From the NCBI RefSeq assembly GCF_053078305.1, contig NZ_CP166875.1: a stretch of DNA of 64,000 bases; one strand, written 5' to 3'. Every line of letters starts with the position of its first letter. The stretch's first letter is position 1. The notes below the pieces were generated by a model, which was given only the letters and a program-made list of their open reading frames with translations, searched no databases and was not told the DNA's origin. The translations under genes and the position numbers were made by a program. Source of the stretch: a plasmid. Positions 1 to 10,130 of the stretch are shown here, piece by piece.

Positions 1-582
1 AGTCACAAATTTTACATTATCTTGATGTGTTTTTTTCTCCTGTTTATTAGTCTCTTTAGGTGACAGGAGTATGGTTAGAATGCTAAATGCACCCATTACA
101 ATAAATATTACATTCCAGTTATAATAATCAAGTATTAATGCTCCGGCCAGAGGTGCTATTAATGGTATTATCGCACTTGTTGATGATATGTCAGAAAGTG
201 CTCTTTTTAGCTTTAGTGGTGGAAAAGACTCTTTAGCAATGGCTTTTGATATTACAGGTCCGGCACCTGCACCTATTGCCTGTAGAATTCTACCCAAAAG
301 AAGCATATTTAAATCATTGGCCATAAAACATACAATACTGCCAATAAGAAATATAATTAAGCATATAGTCATTACGCGTACTTTTCCGAAATAATCACCT
401 ATGGTTCCTGATATCAGTTGACTAAATGCAAATACAATAAGAAATCCACTAATACTTAGTTGAATTAATGAGTAGTCAGCATGAAATGCTTTCTGTAGTT
501 CTGGTAACGCAGGCACAATCATGTCAGTTGATAATGCCGATAATGATGCAGCAAGAACAAGGTAAATATATAGTTTTGTCAT
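1..582 (-). CDS. MFS-type transporter, N-terminal part (gene continues beyond window start)
   Basis: Uninterrupted reverse-strand frame from ATG at 580-582 (AGGGA Shine-Dalgarno upstream) to position 1; translation MTKLYIYLVLAASLSALSTDMIVPALPELQ... is strongly hydrophobic with several predicted TM helices, typical of major-facilitator transporters. Not in ORF track because no stop in window. Confidence 0.5.
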   Translation of the reverse strand, partial: MTKLYIYLVLAASLSALSTDMIVPALPELQKAFHADYSLIQLSISGFLIVFAFSQLISGTIGDYFGKVRVMTICLIIFLIGSIVCFMANDLNMLLLGRILQAIGAGAGPVISKAIAKESFPPLKLKRALSDISSTSAIIPLIAPLAGALILDYYNWNVIFIVMGAFSILTILLSPKETNKQEKKTHQDNVKFVT

Positions 583-979
583 AATTAATCCCTGATAAAA
601 ATATTCTTATTTATCATATTTAAAATGCTTACGCCATCGGTATGTTTTATATTTTGAGATAGCACTACGATAGTGTTTGAGTAGAAACTAATGGGTACTC
701 CCAGATGCATATTCAGGTTGATGGAAGGGGGTAAAAATCCCCGTGCTGAACCTTCCATCCGGAGGGAGGAAACTTATCATTTTAACCTGTTCGTCCGTCG
801 GAATAGTCGAAATCGATCGCGCATCGCTTTTGTGAATAGTTATGCAAGTACCTGAAAACGATTCTGACGCATTTTTTCGGTTTAGCCTGGGGTTTCCTTG
901 TCTTTTTGCGTTTTTGCGTCAGAACGCGTATGAGAGCGTTTCAGCGGTACGTACAATTAAGGGATTATGGTAAATCCCC

Positions 980-1408
980 TTACTGTCTGCCCTCGTATCC
1001 ATCGAGATAAACCGCAGAAATGGTGTCTGCCATTAGTTTCATTTTTTTCGGCGACGGCATATCGCTGTTTGTGTATTTTCTGCCAGCAAAGGTTGTTGTG
1101 CTCCGGAGTGAGTGAAAAAATTTTTCTGAGTGGAATTCTTTTATACGTTGCTGTGCCGTTTCTGCTGATACTCCGGCTGCTTTGTCTTTCACCCCCATAT
1201 CCCGGAACTGCTGAAAGAACGGGAGCATCATACGTATGGTGTCTGCTTTCTGGGTGTAGAAGTTAGGATCAAATCCATCATCTGAAGCATAAACATAATG
1301 CCGGGTATGTCGTTCCAGGCTGGTCTTTGGTGTGCATCCTGTAAGAACGATTGTTGCTGTTATCAGAGGTATCAGAAGCAGCCTGGCAACGGCAGATCTC
1401 ATAAACAT
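980..1408 (-). CDS. putative lipoprotein
   Basis: 142-aa ORF with N-terminal signal peptide and lipobox LTGC (MFMRSAVARLLLIPLITATIVLTGC). Confidence 0.4.
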   Translation of the reverse strand: MFMRSAVARLLLIPLITATIVLTGCTPKTSLERHTRHYVYASDDGFDPNFYTQKADTIRMMLPFFQQFRDMGVKDKAAGVSAETAQQRIKEFHSEKFFHSLRSTTTFAGRKYTNSDMPSPKKMKLMADTISAVYLDGYEGRQ

Positions 1409-1522
1409 CTCCTTGCGTTTTTAATCTTGATACTCAGGGAGTTATATTTCCGAAGAGTATCTCTTATCATACGTCGGTTTACCCCAATGTGATTTGATGG
1501 TCAATGAGTCAGGAATAATCCC

Positions 1523-1801
1523 GTGAAAAAATGTGTGCCAGTCCTGCTTTTTAGTGTTCTTTCTGCTTCGGTTGCCAGTCATGCGGACAGCAATGTTTTT
1601 CAACAAAAGGCCGAGAAGACAAAAAATGGCATTGTTGCGGATGTTAATGCCAGACAGAAAATGTTCAGTAACAGACTGAAGATACAACTTCAGATCGATG
1701 AGTTGAGGGCATCTCTGGCTGGCACCAGAGATGCCCAAAAAAGAGAGGATTTGCGTAAAAAACTGGAGTCTCTGGAGCGGCAAAAGAAATCCTTACGCTG
1801 A
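1523..1801 (+). CDS. small secreted protein, function unknown
   Basis: 92-aa ORF with N-terminal signal peptide (MKKCVPVLLFSVLSASVASHA) followed by a charged, coiled-coil-like C-terminus. Confidence 0.3.
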   Translation: MKKCVPVLLFSVLSASVASHADSNVFQQKAEKTKNGIVADVNARQKMFSNRLKIQLQIDELRASLAGTRDAQKREDLRKKLESLERQKKSLR

Positions 1802-2083
1802 TGGGGGCGTATTTTCCCCGGTTTCTTCCATAACCTTTTTACCGTTCAGATATTTACGGGCGAGGCGAATGCGTCTTGCCTGGTATACCGCCGAGTAAGC
1901 CTGGGTGGGATTCACACCGTTACTGATTTCACTGACCACATGGCGCTGATCAGCCAGTGTCAGCGTGTAAACCTGTTTCTGGATGAGGTCACGGGCTTTG
2001 TCATGCTCATATCCGGCAGCAACAAGGGTGTCGAGAAGTCGTTTGTCTGTTTTGTTCAGTTTATGGCGGGGTGATTTGCTCAC
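1793..2083 (-). CDS. hypothetical protein
   Basis: 96-aa ORF, basic and hydrophilic; no recognisable motif. Confidence 0.25.
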   Translation of the reverse strand: MSKSPRHKLNKTDKRLLDTLVAAGYEHDKARDLIQKQVYTLTLADQRHVVSEISNGVNPTQAYSAVYQARRIRLARKYLNGKKVMEETGENTPPSA

Positions 2084-2214
2084 ATCGTTCTCCGTTTTTC
2101 ATGATCCAACAGTTTTATATCTCATCCTGATTTGCTCCGGTGTTCTGTTTCGACGTTCTCAATGCCTGCCTCCCCATAGTGTGATCCTTATTGCAAAAAT
2201 GAAAATCCATGCTC

Positions 2215-2277
2215 TTGACATGGACAATGGTGAGTAGTAGGTTTTTCTGTACATAAAACCAGTGGTTATATGTACAG
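2215..2277 (+). promoter_or_regulatory. SOS-regulated colicin promoter with tandem LexA boxes
   Basis: Perfect -35 TTGACA at 2215-2220; sequence CTGTACATAAAACCAGTGGTTATATGTACAG (2247-2277) matches the paired overlapping LexA operators (CTGT-N8-ACAG) typical of colicin promoters; AAGAGG Shine-Dalgarno before ATG 2322. Confidence 0.55.
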
Positions 2278-2321
2278 TGTGTTGTTTTTAATTTATTGTT
2301 TTAATTATCAAAGAGGAATTT

Positions 2322-3818
2322 ATGGCTAAAGAACTAAGTGGATATGGCCCAACTGCTGGTGAGTCTATGGGGGGAACAGGGGCGAATCTGAATCAGCAAG
2401 GTGGAAATAATAATAGTAATAGTGGGGTTCACTGGGGTGGTGGTTCAGGCTCTGGTAATGGAGGTGGTGAACATGGAAGTCAGACGGGGTGGGGATGGAG
2501 TAAAACCAATAATCCGGATGTGCCGCCTTATGTTGATGATAATGGGCAGGTGCGCATTACCATTACAAATGGTCTGGTAAAAACGCCTGTATATGGAGTT
2601 CCTGAGGCTGGCGGAAATAGTGATGTTCAGGGGGGCTATATTCCTGAAAATCCTAATGATGAAGTTGCTCGTAAGTGGGATAAAAACAACTTACCGCGAG
2701 AGATTGATGTGAGTATCGATGGTTTTAAATATCGTGTAACGCTTAATGATAATGGTAGAGCTATCGGTATTCTTCGAACAGGTGTCCGTCCTTACGTAGG
2801 GAGTGAAAAAGCTAAGGCGGGTATTATGGAAAAAATCAATCATAAAACACCTGAGGAGATATATGAGGCGTTAGGTTTTAATAAAGATGAATCTCAGCGG
2901 CAGGAAAAAGCAAAACAACAGGCTGAAGATGCGTGGGATCGTTTGCCTCCTAATGTGAGAAAATTTGATGTTGATGTTGAACAGTTCCACTATTTAGTGG
3001 TGCTTGATGATTATGGTAATGTTTTATCTGTAACTAGAACAGCTGTTCGTCCTTATGTAGGGAGTGAAAAAGCTAAGGCTGGTATTATGGATAAAGTCGA
3101 CCATAAGACCCCGGAAGAGATATACGAGGCATTAGGATTTAATAATGAAGAGCCTCAACGACAGAATCAAGCTAAAAAAGCTGCTTATGATGTATTTTAT
3201 TCTTTCAGTATGAACCGTGACCGGATTCAGAGTGATGTGCTAAATAAAGCAGCTGAACTTATATCTGATATGGGTAACAAGATCGGTGATTATCTTGGTG
3301 AATCTTATAAGTCGTTAGCAAGAGAAATTGCTGATGATATCAAAAATTTCCAGGGGAAAACCATCCGTAGCTACGATGATGCAATGGAGTCATTAAATAA
3401 AATTTTGTCTAATCCTAGTTTTAAAGTTAACAGAGCAGACCGTGATGCACTGGTGAACGCCTGGCGAAGTCGTGATGCTCAGGATATAGCAAATAAACTG
3501 GGGAATATCAGTAAGGCTTTCAAAGCTGCCGATGTAATTATGAAGATTGAGAAGGTCAAGGAGAAAAGCATCGAGGGATATGAAACTGGAAACTGGGGGC
3601 CGCTGATGTTGGAGGTTGAGTCTTGGGTTCTCAGTGGTATGGCCGCAAGCGTTGCCATGACATTGCTTAGTGCTATAATTGGATCATTCACACTACCGGC
3701 GTTAGCATTAACTGCAATAAATATTGCAGGTATTATGGGAATTAGTTACCTTGCATCATATATTGATGCAAGTGTGGCTGAAAAAATAAATAATAAATTG
3801 GTTCATTTTACTCATTGA
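2322..3818 (+). CDS. csa: pore-forming colicin, colicin S4-like
   Basis: 498 aa. Gly-rich N-terminal translocation domain (GGTGANLNQQGGNNNSNSGVHWGGGSGSGNGGGEHGS), internally duplicated central segment (TGVRPYVGSEKAKAGIM.K..HKTPEEIYEALGFN occurs twice), C-terminal A-type pore domain with hydrophobic hairpin (GYETGNWGPLMLEVESWVLSGMAASVAMTLLSAIIGSF...). Length and duplicated receptor domain fit colicin S4 as recalled; not verified by search. Confidence 0.85.
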   Translation: MAKELSGYGPTAGESMGGTGANLNQQGGNNNSNSGVHWGGGSGSGNGGGEHGSQTGWGWSKTNNPDVPPYVDDNGQVRITITNGLVKTPVYGVPEAGGNSDVQGGYIPENPNDEVARKWDKNNLPREIDVSIDGFKYRVTLNDNGRAIGILRTGVRPYVGSEKAKAGIMEKINHKTPEEIYEALGFNKDESQRQEKAKQQAEDAWDRLPPNVRKFDVDVEQFHYLVVLDDYGNVLSVTRTAVRPYVGSEKAKAGIMDKVDHKTPEEIYEALGFNNEEPQRQNQAKKAAYDVFYSFSMNRDRIQSDVLNKAAELISDMGNKIGDYLGESYKSLAREIADDIKNFQGKTIRSYDDAMESLNKILSNPSFKVNRADRDALVNAWRSRDAQDIANKLGNISKAFKAADVIMKIEKVKEKSIEGYETGNWGPLMLEVESWVLSGMAASVAMTLLSAIIGSFTLPALALTAINIAGIMGISYLASYIDASVAEKINNKLVHFTH

Positions 3819-3840
3819 TAGAAAAAGAGAGGTGATCATA

Positions 3841-4374
3841 TCACTTCTCTTTAAACGACCTATAGGAACCAATACAAAACCAAAAATACAAATATGAGAA
3901 TATAAAAATAATGGAATGTAAGCTAATGTAAAAAAACGATAGGAGGATTATATTTACAGACATCAGTTTTAGCATTTTTGCAGAACTGGTTAGCTCCGTA
4001 TCAGCAAATAAAAAAGCATATATTAAGATAGCATAAAAAAAAGTGAAAAAAATATTTATTTTCAGTAGTTGCCATGGAGATTTATCATTTTTTAATCTAA
4101 GATTTTTACATGTGTTTAAAAATAAAAGAATGGCAGTGAAAGGAGCTGTTTTTACATACAGACTCAATGTTTTGCTAAATACTGGGGTGTTTTGTGAGTA
4201 TATGGCAGGTAGGTCATTTGCTCTCAATGCTATATAGTTTAATATATTGGATGTTGGATTGTGGATATATATAATGATTATTGAGAACATTGGGATTAGT
4301 GAAATTATAAGGAAGTAAAACATCTTTGTTGCTATTTTATTTCCTTTGTCTGTTTGGTGGTGTTTATTTATCAT
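3841..4374 (-). CDS. csi: colicin immunity protein (A-type, polytopic membrane)
   Basis: 177-aa ORF convergent with and immediately downstream of the colicin gene; four hydrophobic segments; size typical of A-type pore-colicin immunity proteins; AT-rich. Confidence 0.7.
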   Translation of the reverse strand: MINKHHQTDKGNKIATKMFYFLIISLIPMFSIIIIYIHNPTSNILNYIALRANDLPAIYSQNTPVFSKTLSLYVKTAPFTAILLFLNTCKNLRLKNDKSPWQLLKINIFFTFFYAILIYAFLFADTELTSSAKMLKLMSVNIILLSFFYISLHSIIFIFSYLYFWFCIGSYRSFKEK

Positions 4375-4425
4375 CTGTTTACCTGTAAATTTATTATATT
4401 AAAGATTTTGATGAATGGCTATGGT

Positions 4426-4716
4426 TTATTTTCTCTTTAGAGAGTAATATATGAAACTTGGCAATCCTACTGGGATTGCCATTAATAAATAGAACAATGC
4501 AGATAACTTGCATAAGTACCAGGGCTCTTTTTTTAACTTTGTATTTTCTTTGATATATCTAGATATGGTTAATTTAGAGTATGGATATAGCAATACATAT
4601 ATTGACGATATAAAGATAAATAACAAAGGAGTGTTATCAGTGTCGTTAAATATTAAAATAAGAATCCATGGTATAAGTGATTCAGGTAAATTATGTAGGT
4701 AGTATTTTAAATGCAT
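4426..4716 (-). CDS. small polytopic membrane protein, possible second (E1/K-type) colicin immunity protein
   Basis: 96-aa ORF with about three hydrophobic segments, same orientation as the immunity gene, lying between it and the lysis gene; size matches E1/K-type immunity proteins. Confidence 0.35.
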   Translation of the reverse strand: MHLKYYLHNLPESLIPWILILIFNDTDNTPLLFIFISSIYVLLYPYSKLTISRYIKENTKLKKEPWYLCKLSALFYLLMAIPVGLPSFIYYSLKRK

Positions 4717-4745
4717 AAGTATTTTTACTTTTGTCGGAAAGGGAT

Positions 4746-4877
4746 ATGAAAATAATAATTTTTCTAATTAAAATATTATTCTTGTCAGGATGTCAAGCAA
4801 ACTATATTCGTGATGTACAATGAGGAACCGTTGCGTCATCTTCGTCTTCTGAACTGACGGGGATCGCGGTTCAGTAG
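4746..4877 (+). pseudogene. csl: colicin lysis lipoprotein gene interrupted by in-frame TGA
   Basis: ATG 4746 encodes [25 protein letters not shown] (lipobox LSGC), then TGA at 4821-4823, then in the same frame [18 protein letters not shown] and TAG at 4875-4877. The stop sits where colicin lysis proteins have the first Gly of the conserved ...[12 protein letters not shown]... motif. Confidence 0.6.
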
Positions 4878-5076
4878 AAAAGATCAAAGGATCTCTTGAG
4901 ATGGGGTCCCAAGCCGGAAACCTGGATTTTTCCGCTGGATTTTTCCGCGACCAGTAACGGCGTGGGGTGTCACATAAATGACCGATTGAGTGACTGTCAC
5001 TGAAACAACGATTTCTACATCAGATTTCGTCACATAACCCGTCACCTATTGGGGTCAGTTTGGATATAGAGAATTA

Positions 5077-5114
5077 GGGGGCTGGCGCTCAGTGGAACGA
5101 AAACTCACGTTAAG
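5077..5114. repeat. Tn3-family 38-bp terminal inverted repeat
   Basis: GGGGGCTGGCGCTCAGTGGAACGAAAACTCACGTTAAG, near-identical to the Tn3 terminal IR as recalled (about 36/38). Confidence 0.6.
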
Positions 5115-5468
5115 CAATGTTTTCTTCCTCCGATGCCTCTTTTTGCCCTTTAGTCACCAGTTCTGCCAGCGTGAAGGAATATGGCCGAGCATATTGATGT
5201 GTCCGTGGCAAAGTGGTGAGAGGCGTGCGATATCTTCATCATTCACGATTTCCCCCTGTGCCCTGAAATGGTCCAGGGCAGCCTGCATATAAATAGTGTT
5301 CCATAATACGACGGCGTTAGTCACCAGCCCCAGTGCGCCCAGTTGATCTTCTTGACCATCGGTATATCGCTTTCTTATCTCACCTTTCTGACCGTGACAG
5401 ATAGCTCTGGCAACGGCATGGCGACTTTCTCCCCGGTTAAGTTGGGTCAGGATGCGCCAGCGGTAACG
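5110..5468 (-). pseudogene. tnpA: Tn3-family transposase, 3'-terminal fragment (truncated and frameshifted)
   Basis: Reverse-strand translation gives ...RYRWRILTQLNRGESRHAVARAICHGQKGEIRKRYTDGQEDQLGALGLVTNAVVLWNTIYMQAALDH...LSPLCHGHINMLGH, then after a 1-nt frameshift ...YSFTLAELVTKG...EENIA-stop ending inside the IR. Only about 119 codons remain. Confidence 0.55.
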
Positions 5469-5492
5469 GTGATTTCATATTGAAGATAACTG

Positions 5493-5513
5493 TTGTACAA
5501 TTTAATTGTACAA
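5493..5513 (+). promoter_or_regulatory. palindromic operator / promoter upstream of phd-doc
   Basis: Inverted repeat TTGTACAAT..ATTGTACAA containing a TACAAT -10-like hexamer, about 20 bp upstream of the phd start. Confidence 0.4.
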
Positions 5514-5530
5514 CTCAAAGAGGAAGCACT

Positions 5531-5755
5531 ATGTTTACATGTAACTATAGCCATGCTCGCGATAACCTGGCCTCGTTGCTCGAGCTGGCGGTTGATGAAA
5601 ATCAGCCTGTTGAGATTCAGCGCCGTAAAGGTGGCGCGGCTGTACTGGTTGATAAAGACGCTTTTGAACGATACCGTAAAGCGGCTCTTGATGCTGAGTT
5701 TGCTGAGATCATGCAAAGTCATGGGACGGCCTATACGGAGCTTTCTAAGCGATGA
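5531..5755 (+). CDS. phd: Phd/YefM-family antitoxin
   Basis: ATG 5531 with AAAGAGGAAG Shine-Dalgarno; small acidic protein MFTCNYSHARDNLASLLELAVDENQPVEIQRRKGGAAVLV...; stop overlaps the doc start (ATGA at 5752-5755). Confidence 0.75.
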   Translation: MFTCNYSHARDNLASLLELAVDENQPVEIQRRKGGAAVLVDKDAFERYRKAALDAEFAEIMQSHGTAYTELSKR

Positions 5756-6138
5756 AATTCGTTAGTTCACAGGAAATGATTGAGTTTCATGACCGCTTGA
5801 TTTCGCGTGATGGTGGCGTGGCGGGTATGCCAGAACCCGGTCGCGCTGACGCGATCATTCATCGTGTTTTGAACATGTATCATTATGAAGGTGTGACAGA
5901 TATTATGGATCTGGCTGCCGTGTATTTAGTTGCTATTGCTCGTGGTCACATTTTCAACGATGCAAATAAGCGAACAGCCTTGTTTGTTGCACAGGTTTTT
6001 TTAAAACGGAATGGTATACATATTATTAGTTCGCGTATTTCGTTTGATGAAATGCAAATTATCGCTTTGAATGCTGCAACAGGAGAATATAACTGGAAGA
6101 TGGTTTCTGACCATCTTAAAGCCATTATTTTAAATTAG
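5752..6138 (+). CDS. doc: Doc (death-on-curing) toxin, Fic/Doc family
   Basis: 128 aa with the Fic/Doc motif HIFNDANKRTA; translationally coupled to phd. Confidence 0.85.
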   Translation: MKFVSSQEMIEFHDRLISRDGGVAGMPEPGRADAIIHRVLNMYHYEGVTDIMDLAAVYLVAIARGHIFNDANKRTALFVAQVFLKRNGIHIISSRISFDEMQIIALNAATGEYNWKMVSDHLKAIILN

Positions 6139-6709
6139 ATATAGATATCCAATCAGCAGCATTTTACAATCTACTGAGCAATGTAAAAATCATATATCTT
6201 TTTGCTATATAATTTCTGGCGTATGTGCTCAATTCAGACCTGACACTTTTCCGCTTCCTCGCCCACTCGCTCACTACGTTCGGTCGCTGGGGCTGCGGCG
6301 AGCGTTTGTAAGTTTTCTCCAATACTGACGACGTGCTTCCTAGGACAATGAGTCTCTCAGAATCGGTTTCTCGAAGTGACGAGCGATCAGAATGGAGACA
6401 AATAAATTCGGGAAACGAACCTTCACGGTAAGTTTTGTCACATTTATCATCCCTAAACATGAGAATTATCACCAAAACTAACCACCCAACAAACAGCAGC
6501 GCCGGGAGCAGCATTATAAAATCATGTACAGTGTTGCGTAACGACATGATAAGTTCTCAATATGCTCTTTACCAGATTATACCAGTGATACTTTAACGCA
6601 CCATCATTAATGCTAATGTATGCATACATTAGCATTAACATGCTGACAGCAACAAGCGGCGGATTTACGTCTGGATAACGTAAATGATTGCGGTATACAG
6701 GCCAGGCGG

Positions 6710-7558
6710 TCAGATTTTCAGCCGTGCCTGTTCCTGCAGCAGTTCCAGATGATATGTAGCAATAGCGTTTACCACCCCTGCCGTCATCCGTGCGTCGGCG
6801 ATCGCTGAGTGTGCCTGCCCTTCCCAGGTCAGTCCGGCCTGGCTGGCAGCACAGGCCAGTGAAATCGTGCCATAGCGGTTGGTGGCCCCATAATATCCTG
6901 CAGCCAGCTCCATCGCACAATATACCGTCAGTTCTTCCAGCCAGTCAGCCGGATCGCTATGTGCGGCAGCAGTCTGTTTCAGAATGCGGATATCGAACCG
7001 GGCATTAAAGATAATTACTGGTCGGTCCCCGATTGCATGCCGCAGTTGCCGCGCCACATCTGTCCATGATGGTGCGCCGCAGAGTGCCTGCTCACTGATA
7101 CCATGCACGGCGGCGGCCTGCGCCCCGATGGCGACCGTGGGCTTCAGCCTGGTTTCAAACACCACCTGACCGGCCGCATCGGTCAGGCCGATTTCCAGGG
7201 CTTCCGAGGTATTATCCAGTCCTGTCGTTTCAGTATCCAGAAAGAGTGGTGCCAGACTCAGCCAGTCATATGCCTGCCGTGCCATCCGGCCACTGGTGCT
7301 GTTTAGTCGGGATAAAACGGAAAGCCGCTGGCCAGCCAGCTGTTGTTTACTCGTCAGAGGGCGTTTCTCACGCATCGGAACACAATCTGCAATTCGGTAT
7401 ACAGCGAACCTGCCACCATAAGTATTTTTATACCACTTAACCGGCTCAGCACCGGGGGCTGGCTTCATTCTGAATTCATCGCGCAGACGTCCTTTCGAGA
7501 AACACCTGTCTTCGGCAATCGCCTGCGCACGTCTGGTGACCAGCTCATCATTATTCAT
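6710..7558 (-). CDS. DEDDh 3'-5' exonuclease (DnaQ-like) with about 100-aa N-terminal extension
   Basis: 282 aa; Exo I motif FLDTETTGL, Exo II IIFNARFDIRIL, Exo III HSAIADARM; same strand and 45 bp downstream of the RelE/ParE-like toxin gene. Confidence 0.75.
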   Translation of the reverse strand: MNNDELVTRRAQAIAEDRCFSKGRLRDEFRMKPAPGAEPVKWYKNTYGGRFAVYRIADCVPMREKRPLTSKQQLAGQRLSVLSRLNSTSGRMARQAYDWLSLAPLFLDTETTGLDNTSEALEIGLTDAAGQVVFETRLKPTVAIGAQAAAVHGISEQALCGAPSWTDVARQLRHAIGDRPVIIFNARFDIRILKQTAAAHSDPADWLEELTVYCAMELAAGYYGATNRYGTISLACAASQAGLTWEGQAHSAIADARMTAGVVNAIATYHLELLQEQARLKI

Positions 7559-7603
7559 GGTTCTTGCATCTCCGTCAGACGTTTTTATATCCGGACAGCC
7601 CCT

Positions 7604-7885
7604 CTATGGCCACTTCTGTGCAGTATGCAATACTCGCAGGATATACACTTTTCCCCACTGGCTGTCGACCTCATAAACCAGAACAAAATGCGGGTGAATA
7701 ACCAGTTCCCGGGTACCTTCCACACGACCGTTGCGGCCTTTATACGGCTGCCCGGCCAGGCTGCTGGCTGAATAACCAATCCGTTCGTCCAGTTCAATGG
7801 CAGCCATCAGGTTCTGCTCCGCAATGTACTCACGAATGCGCTTCCTGTCCTGGCTGGCCAGCATGGTCCAGAATATCTCCATCAT
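7604..7885 (-). CDS. RelE/ParE-family toxin
   Basis: 93 aa; C-terminal ...HFVLVYEVDSQWGKVYILRVLHTAQ typical of the RelE/ParE fold; start overlaps the upstream antitoxin stop by 4 nt. Confidence 0.75.
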   Translation of the reverse strand: MMEIFWTMLASQDRKRIREYIAEQNLMAAIELDERIGYSASSLAGQPYKGRNGRVEGTRELVIHPHFVLVYEVDSQWGKVYILRVLHTAQKWP

Positions 7886-8151
7886 TTACCGGCAACCTTC
7901 CTGCTCATTTCATCCCGCCATGCTGCAGCAGAGGATTCGACCATGTCATGGGGAAGCACATCGCCGTGCTCGAGTTGCTGACGTCCTGCCGCAACCTGGT
8001 CACGGAACCAGGTATTATGCTGCCGTTCAACGGTCTGGCGCATAAAATCCCGGATTAACTGGGAGCCATTACGGTCCATGCTTTTTGCAGCGGCCATAAA
8101 AGCATCCTTCAGTTCAGCGTCGATTCTTAAACTCATATTAACCTGTGCCAT
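7882..8151 (-). CDS. RelB/ParD-family antitoxin (ribbon-helix-helix)
   Basis: 89 aa; N-terminal RHH signature MSLRIDAELKDAFMAAAKSMDRNGSQLIRDFM; first gene of the operon. Confidence 0.7.
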   Translation of the reverse strand: MAQVNMSLRIDAELKDAFMAAAKSMDRNGSQLIRDFMRQTVERQHNTWFRDQVAAGRQQLEHGDVLPHDMVESSAAAWRDEMSRKVAGK

Positions 8152-8874
8152 TTATCACCTCGTCATTACTACGTATATACACAGTATATAACGATTCAGA
8201 TATCGTCACCAGGATATGCCGCGCCAGCGGCATGGAAGGCGGCGCTCTGTTGTTTCATATGATACCGGAGTAAAACCGCCGAAGCCCGGCGTAAGCCGGT
8301 ACTGATTGATAGATTTCACCTTACCCACCCCCATCCCTGCCAGACCATACCCACTTTCAGCCATGAGAGAGCTTCTGTGCGCGGTCGGAGTGGTCCCGAC
8401 GAGGGTTTACCCGAAGTCGGGGCGTATCTCCGCGTTAGCGGGCCGTCAGGGCCGCTTACGAGCGTGTATTCAACACTTCCAGCGAGAAGACTGACAGCGA
8501 TGATGCTATTTAGTTACAACATTCATAATTAAAAGCGATGTTGTTCCCGCCCTTCGGGCGGGGGCGGCCTCGCTTTTCAGTTATGAGAGGTGAGCACGGT
8601 GCTGCGTTTGTGTGGTGTTTTTATTCCTGATGTCTTTTTGCTGTGGTTTCAGAACGGTGAGGTTCGGGGCCCGCGCGTTAGCGTGGGAGGTGCATATTTG
8701 CTTGTCCACAGGACAGGCACTGAATAGGTTTTCTTTTCAAATGGAAGTAATTAAGTAGTTTAAAGGAAATACAGTACTGGGGTTTAAAAGAAACATTGCA
8801 CCCTGTAACGCCTGCGGCTGGCGCTTTATAGCATTAACGGTTGTAATCTTACGGAGAAGTCCCTTGCAGTTAAA

Positions 8875-9058: not shown

Positions 9059-9931
9059 TCAGGGTGAGGCTGTGGCCAGCCGTGTGTAGTTGTTGTTCCG
9101 CGACATTATCATGCGTTCCTTCACGCGACGGTCGATTTCGCGCTTCACGGCCTCCAGGCTTCCCCGGAAACGCCCTTCCGCGATTTCACGTGTCAGCTGC
9201 CGTTTCACCAGGGTGACAATGTCCTGACGGGTCCTGCCTGCATCGCGGCGCGCACGGGCACGTTTCATGCCGTGGGACTTAAGCTCTGCCTGATAACTGC
9301 GGAAACGCTCGCGCACAAAACGCCAGGCTCTCGCTATCAGTTCATCCATACCCAGCGCATCCAGCCCCTGCTTTTTGCGCAGCTTGTTTTCCCATTCCAC
9401 GCGGCTGCGGCGTGCGGAAGCCACTGCCTCTTCTGAGATATCAAGTGAGTCAAACAGTGCCGGCGTGAACGTGATGTCGGTCGGGATGTTACAGCCAATT
9501 GTCGGGTCGTATTCCGTCTGGTAGGTTATCAGCCCCAGCTCAGACAGGAACTTCAGGGCACGGGTGGCACGGGTGATGGAGAGTTTCCCGGCCTCAGACT
9601 CCGTCGCCAGTCCGCACTCAATGGCCAGCGTGGTGATGGAGCACTGGACGCGGTTGGCCAGCGGATCGTAGTGGAAACACAGCCCCTGCAGCAGCGCATC
9701 AATCGCCCGGCGGCGCAGCACCGGCGGCATACGCCGGCGCAGGCCGCGCGAACGGGCATACGCCACATGCGCGGCAAAATCAAAACGGGAGGTGAAGCCC
9801 ACCGCCTTTTCCATCAGTTTTTCGCAGAACTTCAGCGTCCCGGCATCTTCACGGGGTGTGAAGACCGGATTCGGGTTCTTTACCTGACGGTATGTGCTTT
9901 CAGTAAATGAGGTCTGGTTCAGGGCCGCCAC
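9059..9931 (-). CDS. repA: RepA1-type replication initiator (IncFII / I-complex family)
   Basis: 290 aa; ...[99 protein letters not shown]... closely matches IncFII RepA1 as recalled; start codon uncertain (GTG in ORF track). Confidence 0.85.
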
Positions 9932-10130
9932 AAGCTGTCGCTTATGGCGGAAACAGAATGCCGTGCGTTAATGCACTGCGAAGGGTTGAATCTCTGGTAC
10001 GGTTTCATATATACTTATCCCGTATTCTGTGAGGCCCCCATTATCTTTCTCTGATTCCGCCAAGTTTCGTGGAAAGATGATGGGGGTTTTCCTTTATGGC
10101 CTTCTGAAACTTTTTTCAGCCTTCCGGCCC
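9932..10130 (-). promoter_or_regulatory. repA leader / antisense-RNA control region (inferred)
   Basis: Region upstream of repA on the coding strand; contains 5'-TTGGCG-3' on the repA mRNA strand (window 10057-10062), the loop hexanucleotide used in antisense-RNA control of I-complex/IncFII replicons. No copB/repA2 ORF upstream. Confidence 0.35.

What the first reader, a model, noticed from the sequence alone, without database searches (positions are those of the whole stretch)
6710..8151. RelB/ParD-RelE/ParE module co-oriented with a DEDDh exonuclease carrying a ~100-aa N-terminal extension
Antitoxin (7882-8151) and toxin (7604-7885) overlap by 4 nt, and 45 bp downstream on the same strand is a 282-aa DnaQ-like exonuclease with all three Exo motifs. 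A three-gene arrangement TA plus exonuclease next to the replicon may be a maintenance or anti-phage unit rather than a simple TA pair. I have a vague recollection of a yacABC-like cluster on IncI backbones, so this may be known backbone.
Basis: partly seen in the sequence, partly recalled or inferred. Interest (0 to 1): 0.45.

Follow-up and report, generated by a model that had tools for sequence, protein, structure and literature searches.

The report
Known yacABC plasmid backbone block
This is the well-known yacA-yacB-yacC block beside the replication origin of IncI/IncK/IncF plasmids: an already characterised addiction (toxin-antitoxin) pair followed by a widespread exonuclease gene of untested function that is not a conserved partner of the pair.

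Summary
On the minus strand lie yacA (7882-8151), yacB (7604-7885, 4-nt overlap) and, 45 nt further on, a 282-aa DEDDh exonuclease (6710-7558). Its N-terminal 104 residues form a domain of their own. The block is 100% identical to IncK2/Z plasmid pDW54_2, matches over 5000 plasmid records, and is annotated yacA / yacB / 3'-5' exonuclease (yacC of pS88).

By its published description, the pair appears to be ParDE^I. There the two genes with their own promoter were enough to stabilise test plasmids, and the toxin triggered SOS.

The idea of a three-gene functional unit is not supported:
- Eleven other genomic contexts of exonuclease homologs (32-86% identity) show no RelE/ParE-type pair feeding into the gene.
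- The neighbours are instead kfrA/parA, pemIK, ArdA/ArdC/methylase clusters in integrative elements, or a TraC-like primase.
- In an IncL/M-like plasmid, homology starts only 26 nt upstream of the exonuclease start codon.
- In complete E. coli genomes, yacAB is intact in 1057 records and the exonuclease in 722.

Co-transcription here is plausible (no terminator, no usable promoter in the spacer) but untested. The exonuclease's role is unknown. I infer a DNA 3'-end nuclease used in element establishment or replication. Low interest; already known.

The parts
8167..8190 (-). Overlapping palindromes just upstream of yacA: a perfect TATATAC-N3-GTATATA at 8174-8190 and a 10/12 palindrome at 8167-8186. 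They overlap a TATACT -10-like hexamer (8183-8188). Probable operator/promoter of the TA operon. A GAGGTG ribosome-binding site lies at 8156-8161.
   Evidence: Sequence read directly. The repeat finder pair I5. The consensus promoter scan did not flag a promoter here. Promoter function is inferred from the cloned ParDE^I fragment working with its own promoter (PMC6614396).
7882..8151 (-). yacA (apparently parD^I): an 89-aa antitoxin whose N-terminal part (aa 1-44) resembles RelB/DinJ.
   Evidence: ORF. TIGR02384 E = 2e-5, below the curated cut-off. PHROG 28287 E = 2.5e-47. RefSeq annotation 'antitoxin YacA', WP_000079928.1.
7604..7885 (-). yacB (apparently parE^I): a 93-aa ParE-like toxin of the RelE/ParE superfamily. 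Its start overlaps the yacA stop (ATGA). RefSeq uses the next ATG, at 7882.
   Evidence: ORF. TIGR02385 31.8 bits, above the 27.9 cut-off. Closest solved structure is ParE2 of E. coli O157 (5cw7, E = 3.5e-8, full length). RefSeq 'toxin YacB', WP_001384452.1. Toxicity, SOS induction and absence of the RelE catalytic residues are reported in PMC6614396.
7559..7603 (-). 45-nt yacB-exonuclease spacer. GGAG lies 11 nt before the ATG. There is no terminator. The only promoter-like match (7578-7550) has its -10 hexamer inside the exonuclease ORF.
   Evidence: Sequence. Promoter/terminator scan. RNA fold z-score +0.96. Homology to an IncL/M-like plasmid that lacks yacAB begins at 7584, inside this spacer.
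7247..7558 (-). Exonuclease aa 1-104: a family-specific N-terminal domain consisting of one helix, a small beta-sheet carrying the conserved motif RL..EFRMKP...DCVPM, and two long helices.
6710..7246 (-). Exonuclease aa 105-282 plus stop codon: DEDDh (DnaQ/RNase T-like) 3'-5' exonuclease domain. Exo I is DTETTGL, Exo II is FNARFDIRIL, Exo III is HSAIADARMT. It ends in a long C-terminal helix.
   Evidence: Pfam PF00929 E = 8e-15. Catalytic residues conserved in at least 90% of sequences. AF2 pLDDT 96.7. Best Foldseek matches are Pol III epsilon, the DinG exonuclease domain, a Streptococcus thermophilus DnaQ domain, ExoX and RNase T.
6607..6638 (.). Perfect 32-bp AT-rich palindrome 72 bp downstream of the exonuclease stop. 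It is not followed by a T-run. It marks a cassette boundary in related plasmids.
   Evidence: the repeat finder pair I2. Unique in the window, with 0 matches expected by chance. Two copies flank a roughly 550-bp insert carrying a 157-aa ORF in IncI-gamma/K1 plasmid TY474p2.

Best explanation
The stretch holds two functionally separate modules that lie together in the backbone of I-complex and IncF plasmids.

1. yacA-yacB is an ordinary two-gene type II addiction system, apparently the published ParDE^I. YacA is the antitoxin. It presumably binds the palindromes over its own promoter and neutralises YacB. YacB is a ParE-like toxin which, once freed in plasmid-less daughter cells, damages DNA (probably through gyrase) and induces SOS. 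The result is that the plasmid is kept.

2. yacC is a stand-alone DEDDh 3'-5' exonuclease with a private N-terminal domain.
- Here it is most likely read from the same transcript as the TA. That would put it under the TA's autorepression and give a burst of expression in a newly entered cell.
- It is nevertheless an independently mobile gene. Elsewhere it sits behind kfrA/parA or pemIK, inside ArdA/ArdC/methylase clusters of integrative elements, or beside a TraC-like primase.
- I infer that it trims DNA 3' ends for the mobile element during establishment or replication, and that it is not part of the TA mechanism.

What is shown and what is inferred:
- Shown here: gene structure, family membership, catalytic residues, fold, backbone identity, lack of conserved TA linkage.
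- Shown by others, for ParDE^I: TA function.
- Inferred: identity of this pair with ParDE^I, co-transcription, operator function, DNA as substrate, the establishment role.
For: Known backbone:
- 100% identity to IncK2/Z pDW54_2, with more than 5000 matching plasmid records annotated yacA/yacB/3'-5' exonuclease.
- yacA/yacB/yacC appear in the pS88 gene table (PMC3438092).

TA function:
- ParDE^I is a toxin 'variably annotated YacB', with a 282-bp gene, on IncI/IncF plasmids.
- The two genes alone stabilised pACYC184 and pBCSK+, and the toxin induced recA/lexA and cell elongation (PMC6614396).
- YacB is closest to ParE2.

Independence of the exonuclease:
- Neighbours in other elements are kfrA; pemIK plus an unknown ORF; no TA; ArdA/ArdC/methylase/TraI_2 in integrative elements; an ArdC-primase protein and a resolvase; and resA-yacC-traC2 in an IncP-1 plasmid.
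- An 85%-identical copy without yacAB has homology starting only 26 nt upstream of the ATG.
- In complete E. coli genomes the TA is intact in 1057 records, the yacB-exonuclease junction in 850 and the exonuclease in 722.

Co-transcription: 45-nt spacer, no terminator, no usable promoter, no stable RNA structure.

Active DNA-type exonuclease: all five DEDDh residues are conserved, and the model's best matches are Pol III epsilon, the DinG exonuclease domain, a Streptococcus thermophilus DnaQ domain and ExoX.
Against: - No transcript data exist for the junction. A promoter inside yacB cannot be excluded.
- I found no experimental work on YacC, so its substrate and role are inferred only from its neighbours.
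- RNase T also appears among the structural matches, so an RNA substrate is not excluded.
- About 40% of E. coli records carrying the exonuclease gene hold only a truncated copy. Whatever it does is dispensable for plasmid survival.
- Identity of this TA with pJIE512b ParDE^I could not be checked by alignment, because HG970648 is not in the collections. It rests on the paper's description. The same RefSeq protein is present in the IncI-gamma and IncK2/Z plasmids examined here.
- In this plasmid the gene lies next to the replicon, not in an obvious anti-restriction cluster.
Confidence: 0.72

Rival explanations
1. The three genes form one functional unit. The exonuclease would be a third component of the TA, acting with YacB in post-segregational killing or in abortive-infection-type phage defence, for example by degrading DNA ends created by the gyrase poison.
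For: - Same strand, 45-nt spacer and no terminator, so probably one transcript.
- The junction is intact in about 80% of E. coli records that have an intact TA (850 of 1057).
- The exonuclease domain matches the PADLOC models DEDDh (1e-28) and PDC-S48 (5e-22).
- A ParE-type toxin causes DNA damage (PMC6614396), which an exonuclease could in principle act on.
Against: - The TA alone is sufficient for stabilisation (PMC6614396).
- Linkage is not conserved outside the IncI/K/F complex. Eleven other contexts lack a RelE/ParE-type pair feeding into the gene.
- An 85%-identical copy sits in another plasmid without yacAB.
- The TA persists without an intact exonuclease in at least 20% of records.
- The PADLOC hits cover only the generic exonuclease domain of much longer profiles (9-167 of 411).
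Confidence: 0.08
2. YacC is an epsilon-like proofreading subunit. It would join the host replicase at the neighbouring origin and raise the fidelity or processivity of plasmid replication.
For: - The best sequence and fold matches are Pol III epsilon and the PolC exonuclease domain.
- The gene lies beside the replicon.
- Phage homologs (186, N15 gp41, Vibrio phages) are annotated 'DNA polymerase exonuclease subunit'.
- One homolog lies near a Pol III beta-clamp gene.
Against: - It scores far below the curated DnaQ cut-offs (56 vs 222.7 bits).
- Only the catalytic domain of epsilon aligns (residues 9-176 of 243).
- The protein ends in a single helix right after Exo III, with nothing in the position of epsilon's C-terminal alpha-binding segment (model; the role of that segment is from my own knowledge of epsilon). 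It carries an unrelated N-terminal domain instead.
- It is frequently truncated in natural plasmids.
- Many homologs sit in integrative elements that do not replicate autonomously.
Confidence: 0.07
3. YacC is a dedicated anti-defence effector. It would destroy a nucleic-acid intermediate or signal of a host immune system when the element enters a new cell.
For: - In integrative elements the gene lies inside co-oriented clusters with ArdA-like anti-restriction genes, ArdC, DUF1281 and an N6 methylase.
- It is fed by autorepressed genes (TA, kfrA, pemIK), which would give zygotic induction (inference).
- In pDW54_2 it has the same orientation as the ardA/methylase genes about 9 kb away.
Against: - This is pure guilt by association. 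No phenotype is known.
- The leading-region survey I read does not mention such a nuclease (PMC11541004).
- In this window the gene is next to the replicon and a colicin block, not next to anti-restriction genes.
- Many contexts are partition or replication regions instead.
Confidence: 0.1

Closest known systems
ParDE^I (YacA-YacB) toxin-antitoxin system of IncI/IncF plasmids (Kamruzzaman & Iredell 2019, PMC6614396)
   Same: - Gene sizes and order match, with a 282-bp toxin gene.
- The paper gives YacB as one annotation of proteins identical to the ParE^I toxin.
- The location on an I-complex plasmid matches.
- The toxin is ParE-like and the antitoxin is of RHH type.
- The window's YacB and YacA are the RefSeq proteins WP_001384452.1 and WP_000079928.1, found in both IncK2/Z and IncI-gamma/K1 plasmids.
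   Different: Nothing detectable. Direct alignment to pJIE512b was not possible because the record is absent from the collections. That paper does not discuss the downstream exonuclease (0 occurrences of the word).
yacABC cluster of R100/pS88/R64-type plasmid backbones
   Same: Three co-oriented genes directly downstream of the replicon. They are annotated YacA 'possible repressor', YacB 'plasmid stabilization system protein' and YacC 'putative exoribonuclease' in pS88 (PMC3438092). The same block occurs in IncI-gamma/K1 TY474p2 with a 39-nt spacer.
   Different: Here the block sits on an IncK2/Z-type replicon. On its left it is joined, at about 6344, to a colicin/phd-doc block instead of the ProQ/FinO and UvrD-helicase genes of pDW54_2. 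That R100 and R64 also carry this cluster is from my own memory, not tested here.
PaaR2-PaaA2-ParE2 of E. coli O157 (the closest solved ParE; a genuine three-gene TA)
   Same: YacB aligns over its full length with ParE2 (5cw7, E = 3.5e-8). Both loci have three co-oriented genes.
   Different: In the O157 system the third gene is a transcriptional regulator (my own knowledge). Here it is an exonuclease that is not linked to the TA in other elements.
DNA polymerase III epsilon subunit (DnaQ) and other DEDDh exonucleases (ExoX, RNase T, the DinG N-terminal domain, a Streptococcus thermophilus DnaQ domain)
   Same: Same fold and the same five catalytic residues.
   Different: - About 23% identity.
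- Far below the curated family cut-offs.
- No segment in the position of epsilon's C-terminal tail.
- A private 104-aa N-terminal domain found only in the YacC/Ycg4D family.
Exonuclease of P2/186-like phages, N15 gp41 and phiKO2 gp39 (PHROG 192)
   Same: Homologous exonuclease domain at 27-41% identity, encoded by mobile elements.
   Different: Most phage versions lack the first 70-100 or so residues. Only some Vibrio phage proteins align from residue 16. Their function is equally untested as far as I could find.

Membership tests
Type II toxin-antitoxin system, RelE/ParE superfamily (ParDE^I / YacAB) | Two small adjacent co-oriented genes, antitoxin first, with overlapping or abutting stop and start codons | tested here: met
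   yacA is at 7882-8151 and yacB at 7604-7885, with an ATGA overlap.
Type II toxin-antitoxin system, RelE/ParE superfamily (ParDE^I / YacAB) | The toxin belongs to the RelE/ParE fold family | tested here: met
   TIGR02385 scores 31.8 bits, above the curated 27.9. ParE2 (5cw7) matches at E = 3.5e-8 over residues 1-93.
Type II toxin-antitoxin system, RelE/ParE superfamily (ParDE^I / YacAB) | The antitoxin has an N-terminal ribbon-helix-helix DNA-binding domain | tested here: inconclusive
   TIGR02384 RelB/DinJ matches aa 1-44 at E = 2e-5, but 24.7 bits is below the 45.65 cut-off. The protein is described as RHH/COG3905 in PMC6614396.
Type II toxin-antitoxin system, RelE/ParE superfamily (ParDE^I / YacAB) | A palindromic operator overlaps the promoter, allowing autoregulation | tested here: inconclusive
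   Palindromes are present at 8167-8190 over a TATACT hexamer. Binding and repression were not tested, and the consensus promoter scan did not flag the site.
Type II toxin-antitoxin system, RelE/ParE superfamily (ParDE^I / YacAB) | Toxin toxicity, neutralisation by the antitoxin, and plasmid stabilisation | not testable with these tools
   Reported experimentally for ParDE^I in PMC6614396.
DEDDh (DnaQ-like) 3'-5' exonuclease superfamily | Exo I, II and III motifs with D, E, D, H and D catalytic residues | tested here: met
   D108, E110, D189, H250 and D255 are present and conserved in at least 90% of 39 homologs. Pfam PF00929 matches at E = 8e-15.
DEDDh (DnaQ-like) 3'-5' exonuclease superfamily | RNase H-like exonuclease fold | tested here: met
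   The AF2 model has pLDDT 96.7. Foldseek probability is 1.00 to epsilon, ExoX and RNase T, with TM-score about 0.8 on the target.
DNA polymerase III epsilon subunit (DnaQ proper) | Passes the curated DnaQ equivalog models | tested here: not met
   TIGR01406 scores 56 bits against a cut-off of 222.7. NF004316 scores 53 against 196.
DNA polymerase III epsilon subunit (DnaQ proper) | A C-terminal segment that binds the alpha subunit | tested here: not met
   Only residues 9-176 of the 243-aa epsilon align. YacC ends with one helix (aa 252-281) directly after Exo III. The definition of the epsilon tail is from my own knowledge.
Three-component toxin-antitoxin or defence operon (TA plus an obligate third gene) | The third gene is consistently linked to the TA pair among homologs | tested here: not met
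   None of 11 other contexts of exonuclease homologs has a RelE/ParE-type pair directly upstream and co-oriented. In E. coli the TA is intact in 1057 records and the exonuclease in 722.
Three-component toxin-antitoxin or defence operon (TA plus an obligate third gene) | The third gene is needed for the TA phenotype | not testable with these tools
   The literature indicates it is not needed. The two ParDE^I genes cloned alone stabilised test plasmids (PMC6614396).
PADLOC candidate defence system PDC-S48 | A full-length match to the system's protein model | tested here: not met
   Only positions 9-167 of a 411-position profile, and 21-178 of a 512-position profile, are matched. That is the generic exonuclease domain.
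Leading-region anti-defence genes of conjugative plasmids | Location in the first-transferred segment next to oriT, among ardA/psiB/ssb-type genes | not tested
   oriT was not located. In pDW54_2 the gene is about 9 kb from ardA and in the same orientation. In this window its neighbours are the replicon and a colicin/phd-doc block.

The most novel reading that the evidence does not exclude
The YacC/Ycg4D family would be an uncharacterised DEDDh exonuclease restricted to mobile elements, with a private and possibly DNA-binding N-terminal domain.

It would act as an establishment or anti-defence factor, trimming or destroying a DNA 3'-end intermediate on entry into a new host.

It would also be habitually wired behind autorepressed genes (the yacAB TA here, kfrA or pemIK elsewhere), so that it is expressed in a burst before the repressor accumulates.
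Probability: 0.15. Interest if true: 0.55.

Novelty: already known. Interest (0 to 1): 0.14.

Why it matters
As filed, it matters little. The block is standard backbone of thousands of IncI/IncK/IncF resistance and virulence plasmids, and the TA has been characterised.

One point is worth keeping. The third gene is intact in 653 of 5426 complete E. coli genomes (12%) and present at least in part in 1100 (20%). It belongs to a family spread across plasmids, integrative elements and phages of Proteobacteria. It has a confidently modelled and conserved private domain. I could find no experimental study of it.

If it proved to help plasmids establish in new hosts, it would be a target for limiting the spread of resistance plasmids.

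Tried and rejected
- PADLOC defence models: the hits cover only the generic exonuclease domain, so I rejected them as evidence for a defence system.
- Independent promoter in the 45-nt spacer: the only consensus match has its -10 hexamer inside the ORF, downstream of the ATG. I rejected it as a promoter for the full-length protein.
- Terminator or structured RNA in the spacer: none found, z-score +0.96.
- Rfam: nothing lies between 6710 and 8151. The mir-155 'hits' at 6604-6641 are the palindrome and fall far below the gathering score.
- Literature on YacC function: the searches 'yacC + plasmid + exonuclease', 'DnaQ-like + conjugative plasmid', 'Ycg4D' and 'kfrA + exonuclease' returned nothing experimental. 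The RA3 and ArdC papers mention exonucleases only incidentally. The leading-region anti-defence paper does not mention such a nuclease.
- Direct comparison with pJIE512b (HG970648): the record is not in the collections.
- One paper search failed on a syntax error.
- Systematic scan of genome or metagenome collections for a full neighbourhood census: I considered it but did not run it. Eleven independent contexts already answered the linkage question.
Full report
**1.

The minus strand carries three ORFs:
- an 89-aa ORF at 7882-8151;
- a 93-aa ORF at 7604-7885, overlapping the first by ATGA;
- after a 45-nt spacer, a 282-aa ORF at 6710-7558.

The 93-aa protein passes the curated RelE/StbE model (31.8 vs 27.9 bits). 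The 89-aa protein matches RelB/DinJ over residues 1-44, but below the cut-off.

The 282-aa protein has a Pfam RNase_T domain at residues 106-262. In a 39-sequence family alignment the five DEDDh residues (D108, E110, D189, H250, D255) are each conserved in at least 90% of sequences. The first 104 residues have no Pfam match.

An IncFII-family RepA lies at 9059-9931, preceded by the repZ-type regulatory pseudoknot at 9944-10094 (166.7 bits). The block really does sit next to an I-complex replicon.

**2. What it is: known backbone**

Positions 6500-8400 are 100% identical to the IncK2/Z plasmid pDW54_2 and to NC_025145. They match at least 5000 plasmid records, 917 of them over at least 80% of the length.

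RefSeq annotates the genes as yacA (antitoxin), yacB (toxin) and '3'-5' exonuclease'. The same arrangement, with a 39-nt spacer, is present in IncI-gamma/K1 plasmid TY474p2. The pS88 gene table lists YacA, YacB and 'putative exoribonuclease YacC' directly after RepA1 (PMC3438092). Shigella pINV uses yacAB alleles for plasmid typing (PMC9455713).

**3. The TA pair has been characterised**

Kamruzzaman and Iredell described ParDE^I from IncI1 plasmid pJIE512b.
- Proteins identical to its toxin are 'variably annotated' as YacB, among other names.
- The toxin gene is 282 bp.
- The system occurs on IncI and IncF plasmids.

The two genes cloned with their own promoter kept pACYC184 and pBCSK+ in the population. 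The toxin alone inhibited growth, elongated cells and induced recA and lexA. The antitoxin neutralised it. The RelE catalytic residues are absent (PMC6614396).

In agreement, YacB's closest solved relative is ParE2 of E. coli O157 (5cw7, E = 3.5e-8, full length).

Just upstream of yacA there is a perfect TATACAC-type inverted repeat, TATATAC-N3-GTATATA, overlapping a second imperfect palindrome at 8167-8190. They sit over a TATACT hexamer, ahead of a GAGGTG ribosome-binding site. This is the usual look of a TA operator, but I could not test it.

I could not align the window to pJIE512b because that record is not in the collections. The identity therefore rests on the paper's description. The same RefSeq proteins do occur in both the IncK2/Z and the IncI-gamma plasmids examined here.

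**4. Is the exonuclease part of the TA unit?**

*Transcription.* The spacer holds no terminator and no stable structure (z = +0.96). The single promoter-like match places its -10 hexamer inside the ORF. A GGAG lies 11 nt before the ATG. The start codon is supported by the N-termini of homologs. Read-through from the yacA promoter is the simplest reading, but it is an inference.

*Linkage.* I looked at 11 other contexts of homologs.

| Element | Neighbours of the exonuclease |
|---|---|
| 270-kb Salmonella plasmid | follows kfrA with a 4-nt overlap; a divergent parDE lies upstream |
| Metagenomic contig (41% identity) | again follows kfrA, next to parA |
| Photorhabdus | follows pemI-pemK and an unknown ORF |
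| Serratia, Erwinia and Citrobacter elements | no TA |
| Two integrative elements with TraI_2 relaxases | co-oriented cluster with ArdA-like anti-restriction genes, ArdC, DUF1281 and a methylase |
| IncP-like contig | between an ArdC-primase fusion protein and a resolvase |
| IncP-1 plasmid (published table) | resA-yacC-traC2 |
| Phage-plasmid-like contig | follows a ParA-like gene, near a beta-clamp gene and recT |
| IncL/M-like plasmid pEsST80_L1_NDM | 85%-identical copy at the end of a different gene run, no yacAB |

In the last case, homology to the window starts only 26 nt upstream of the ATG.

In complete E. coli genomes, yacAB is at least 80% covered in 1057 records, the yacB-exonuclease junction in 850 and the exonuclease in 722. 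A further 500 or so records hold truncated exonuclease copies.

So the exonuclease, together with its ribosome-binding site, is a module of its own. The synteny with yacAB is a lineage feature of the I-complex/IncF backbone. The TA neither needs it nor always keeps it.

**5. The exonuclease itself**

A search of 1.8 billion cluster representatives found 7702 relatives. About 35 clusters are full length, including the N-terminal part, down to 32% identity.

The AlphaFold model built on 39 sequences is very confident (pLDDT 96.7). Its catalytic domain best matches Pol III epsilon, the DinG exonuclease domain, a Streptococcus thermophilus DnaQ domain, ExoX and RNase T.

It is not DnaQ proper:
- it scores far below the curated cut-offs;
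- only epsilon's catalytic domain aligns;
- the protein ends in one helix right after Exo III.

Phage relatives (186/P2-like phages, N15 gp41, phiKO2 gp39) mostly lack this domain.

I found no experimental work on the protein.

**6. Most likely mechanism**

YacAB acts as a classical addiction module. YacC is a separate DNA 3'-5' exonuclease serving the mobile element. The evidence for this is its catalytic integrity under long-term conservation, its DNA-type structural neighbours, and its recurring company of partition/replication genes and anti-restriction/primase genes.

Being placed behind autorepressed genes (a TA here, kfrA or pemIK elsewhere) would give a burst of expression in a naive cell. 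This is inference.

I rate the rivals as follows:

| Rival | Confidence |
|---|---|
| True three-gene unit | 0.08 |
| Epsilon-like proofreader | 0.07 |
| Dedicated anti-defence effector | 0.10 |

**7. Verdict**

The feature is already known and ordinary.

What remains interesting is that a very common plasmid gene with a private domain has no tested function.

Noticed in passing
window 6607-6638; L017 3114-3145 and about 3668-3699: A perfect 32-bp AT-rich palindrome (TTAATGCTAATGTATG/CATACATTAGCATTAA) lies 72 bp downstream of the exonuclease stop. In IncI-gamma/K1 plasmid TY474p2, two copies (one with two central mismatches) flank a roughly 550-bp insert carrying a 157-aa hypothetical ORF. The palindrome therefore looks like a cassette or recombination boundary.
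   Followed up: partly
window about 6343-6344: A mosaic junction. Positions 1-6344 are 99-100% identical to colicin-type plasmids (colicin-like pore former, cui immunity, MFS transporter, Exc2 lipoprotein, phd/doc). From 6343 onwards the window follows IncK2/Z pDW54_2, which instead has ProQ/FinO and a UvrD-like helicase to the left of the exonuclease.
   Followed up: partly
window 5480-6138 (+): A second type II TA, Phd/YefM-like antitoxin (5480-5755) plus Doc toxin (5752-6138, TIGR01550 at 84 bits), lies about 570 bp from the exonuclease on the opposite strand.
   Followed up: no
window 6164-6547 (-): A 127-aa ORF directly downstream of the exonuclease has a hydrophobic N-terminal segment and no match in NCBIfam, PADLOC or PHROGs.
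   Followed up: no
window 9944-10095: The I-complex replication control elements are present: the repZ pseudoknot (RF01087, 166.7 bits, minus strand) and, overlapping it on the plus strand, a weak CopA-like antisense RNA match (34.6 bits, below the gathering score).
   Followed up: no
L012/L013 5001-5843; L014 3562-4413: In chromosomal integrative elements with TraI_2 relaxases, YacC-family exonucleases sit in co-oriented clusters with ArdA-like anti-restriction genes, ArdC, DUF1281, DUF7706 and an N6 methylase. DUF7706 also lies upstream of the exonuclease in the IncL/M-like plasmid L018.
   Followed up: partly
L002-L005 5039-6858; L015 3891-5876: In two unrelated elements the exonuclease gene directly follows a kfrA-type gene, with a 4-nt overlap in one and a 9-nt gap in the other. 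This suggests a recurrent kfrA-exonuclease operon.
   Followed up: partly
L019 5001-5468 (E. coli ATCC 25922 chromosome): A truncated yacC remnant (96% identity) lies next to a frameshifted Exc2 lipoprotein gene and IS fragments in the chromosome. This is evidence of an old plasmid-derived insertion. In all, 139 chromosomal places match the exonuclease gene in complete E. coli genomes.
   Followed up: no
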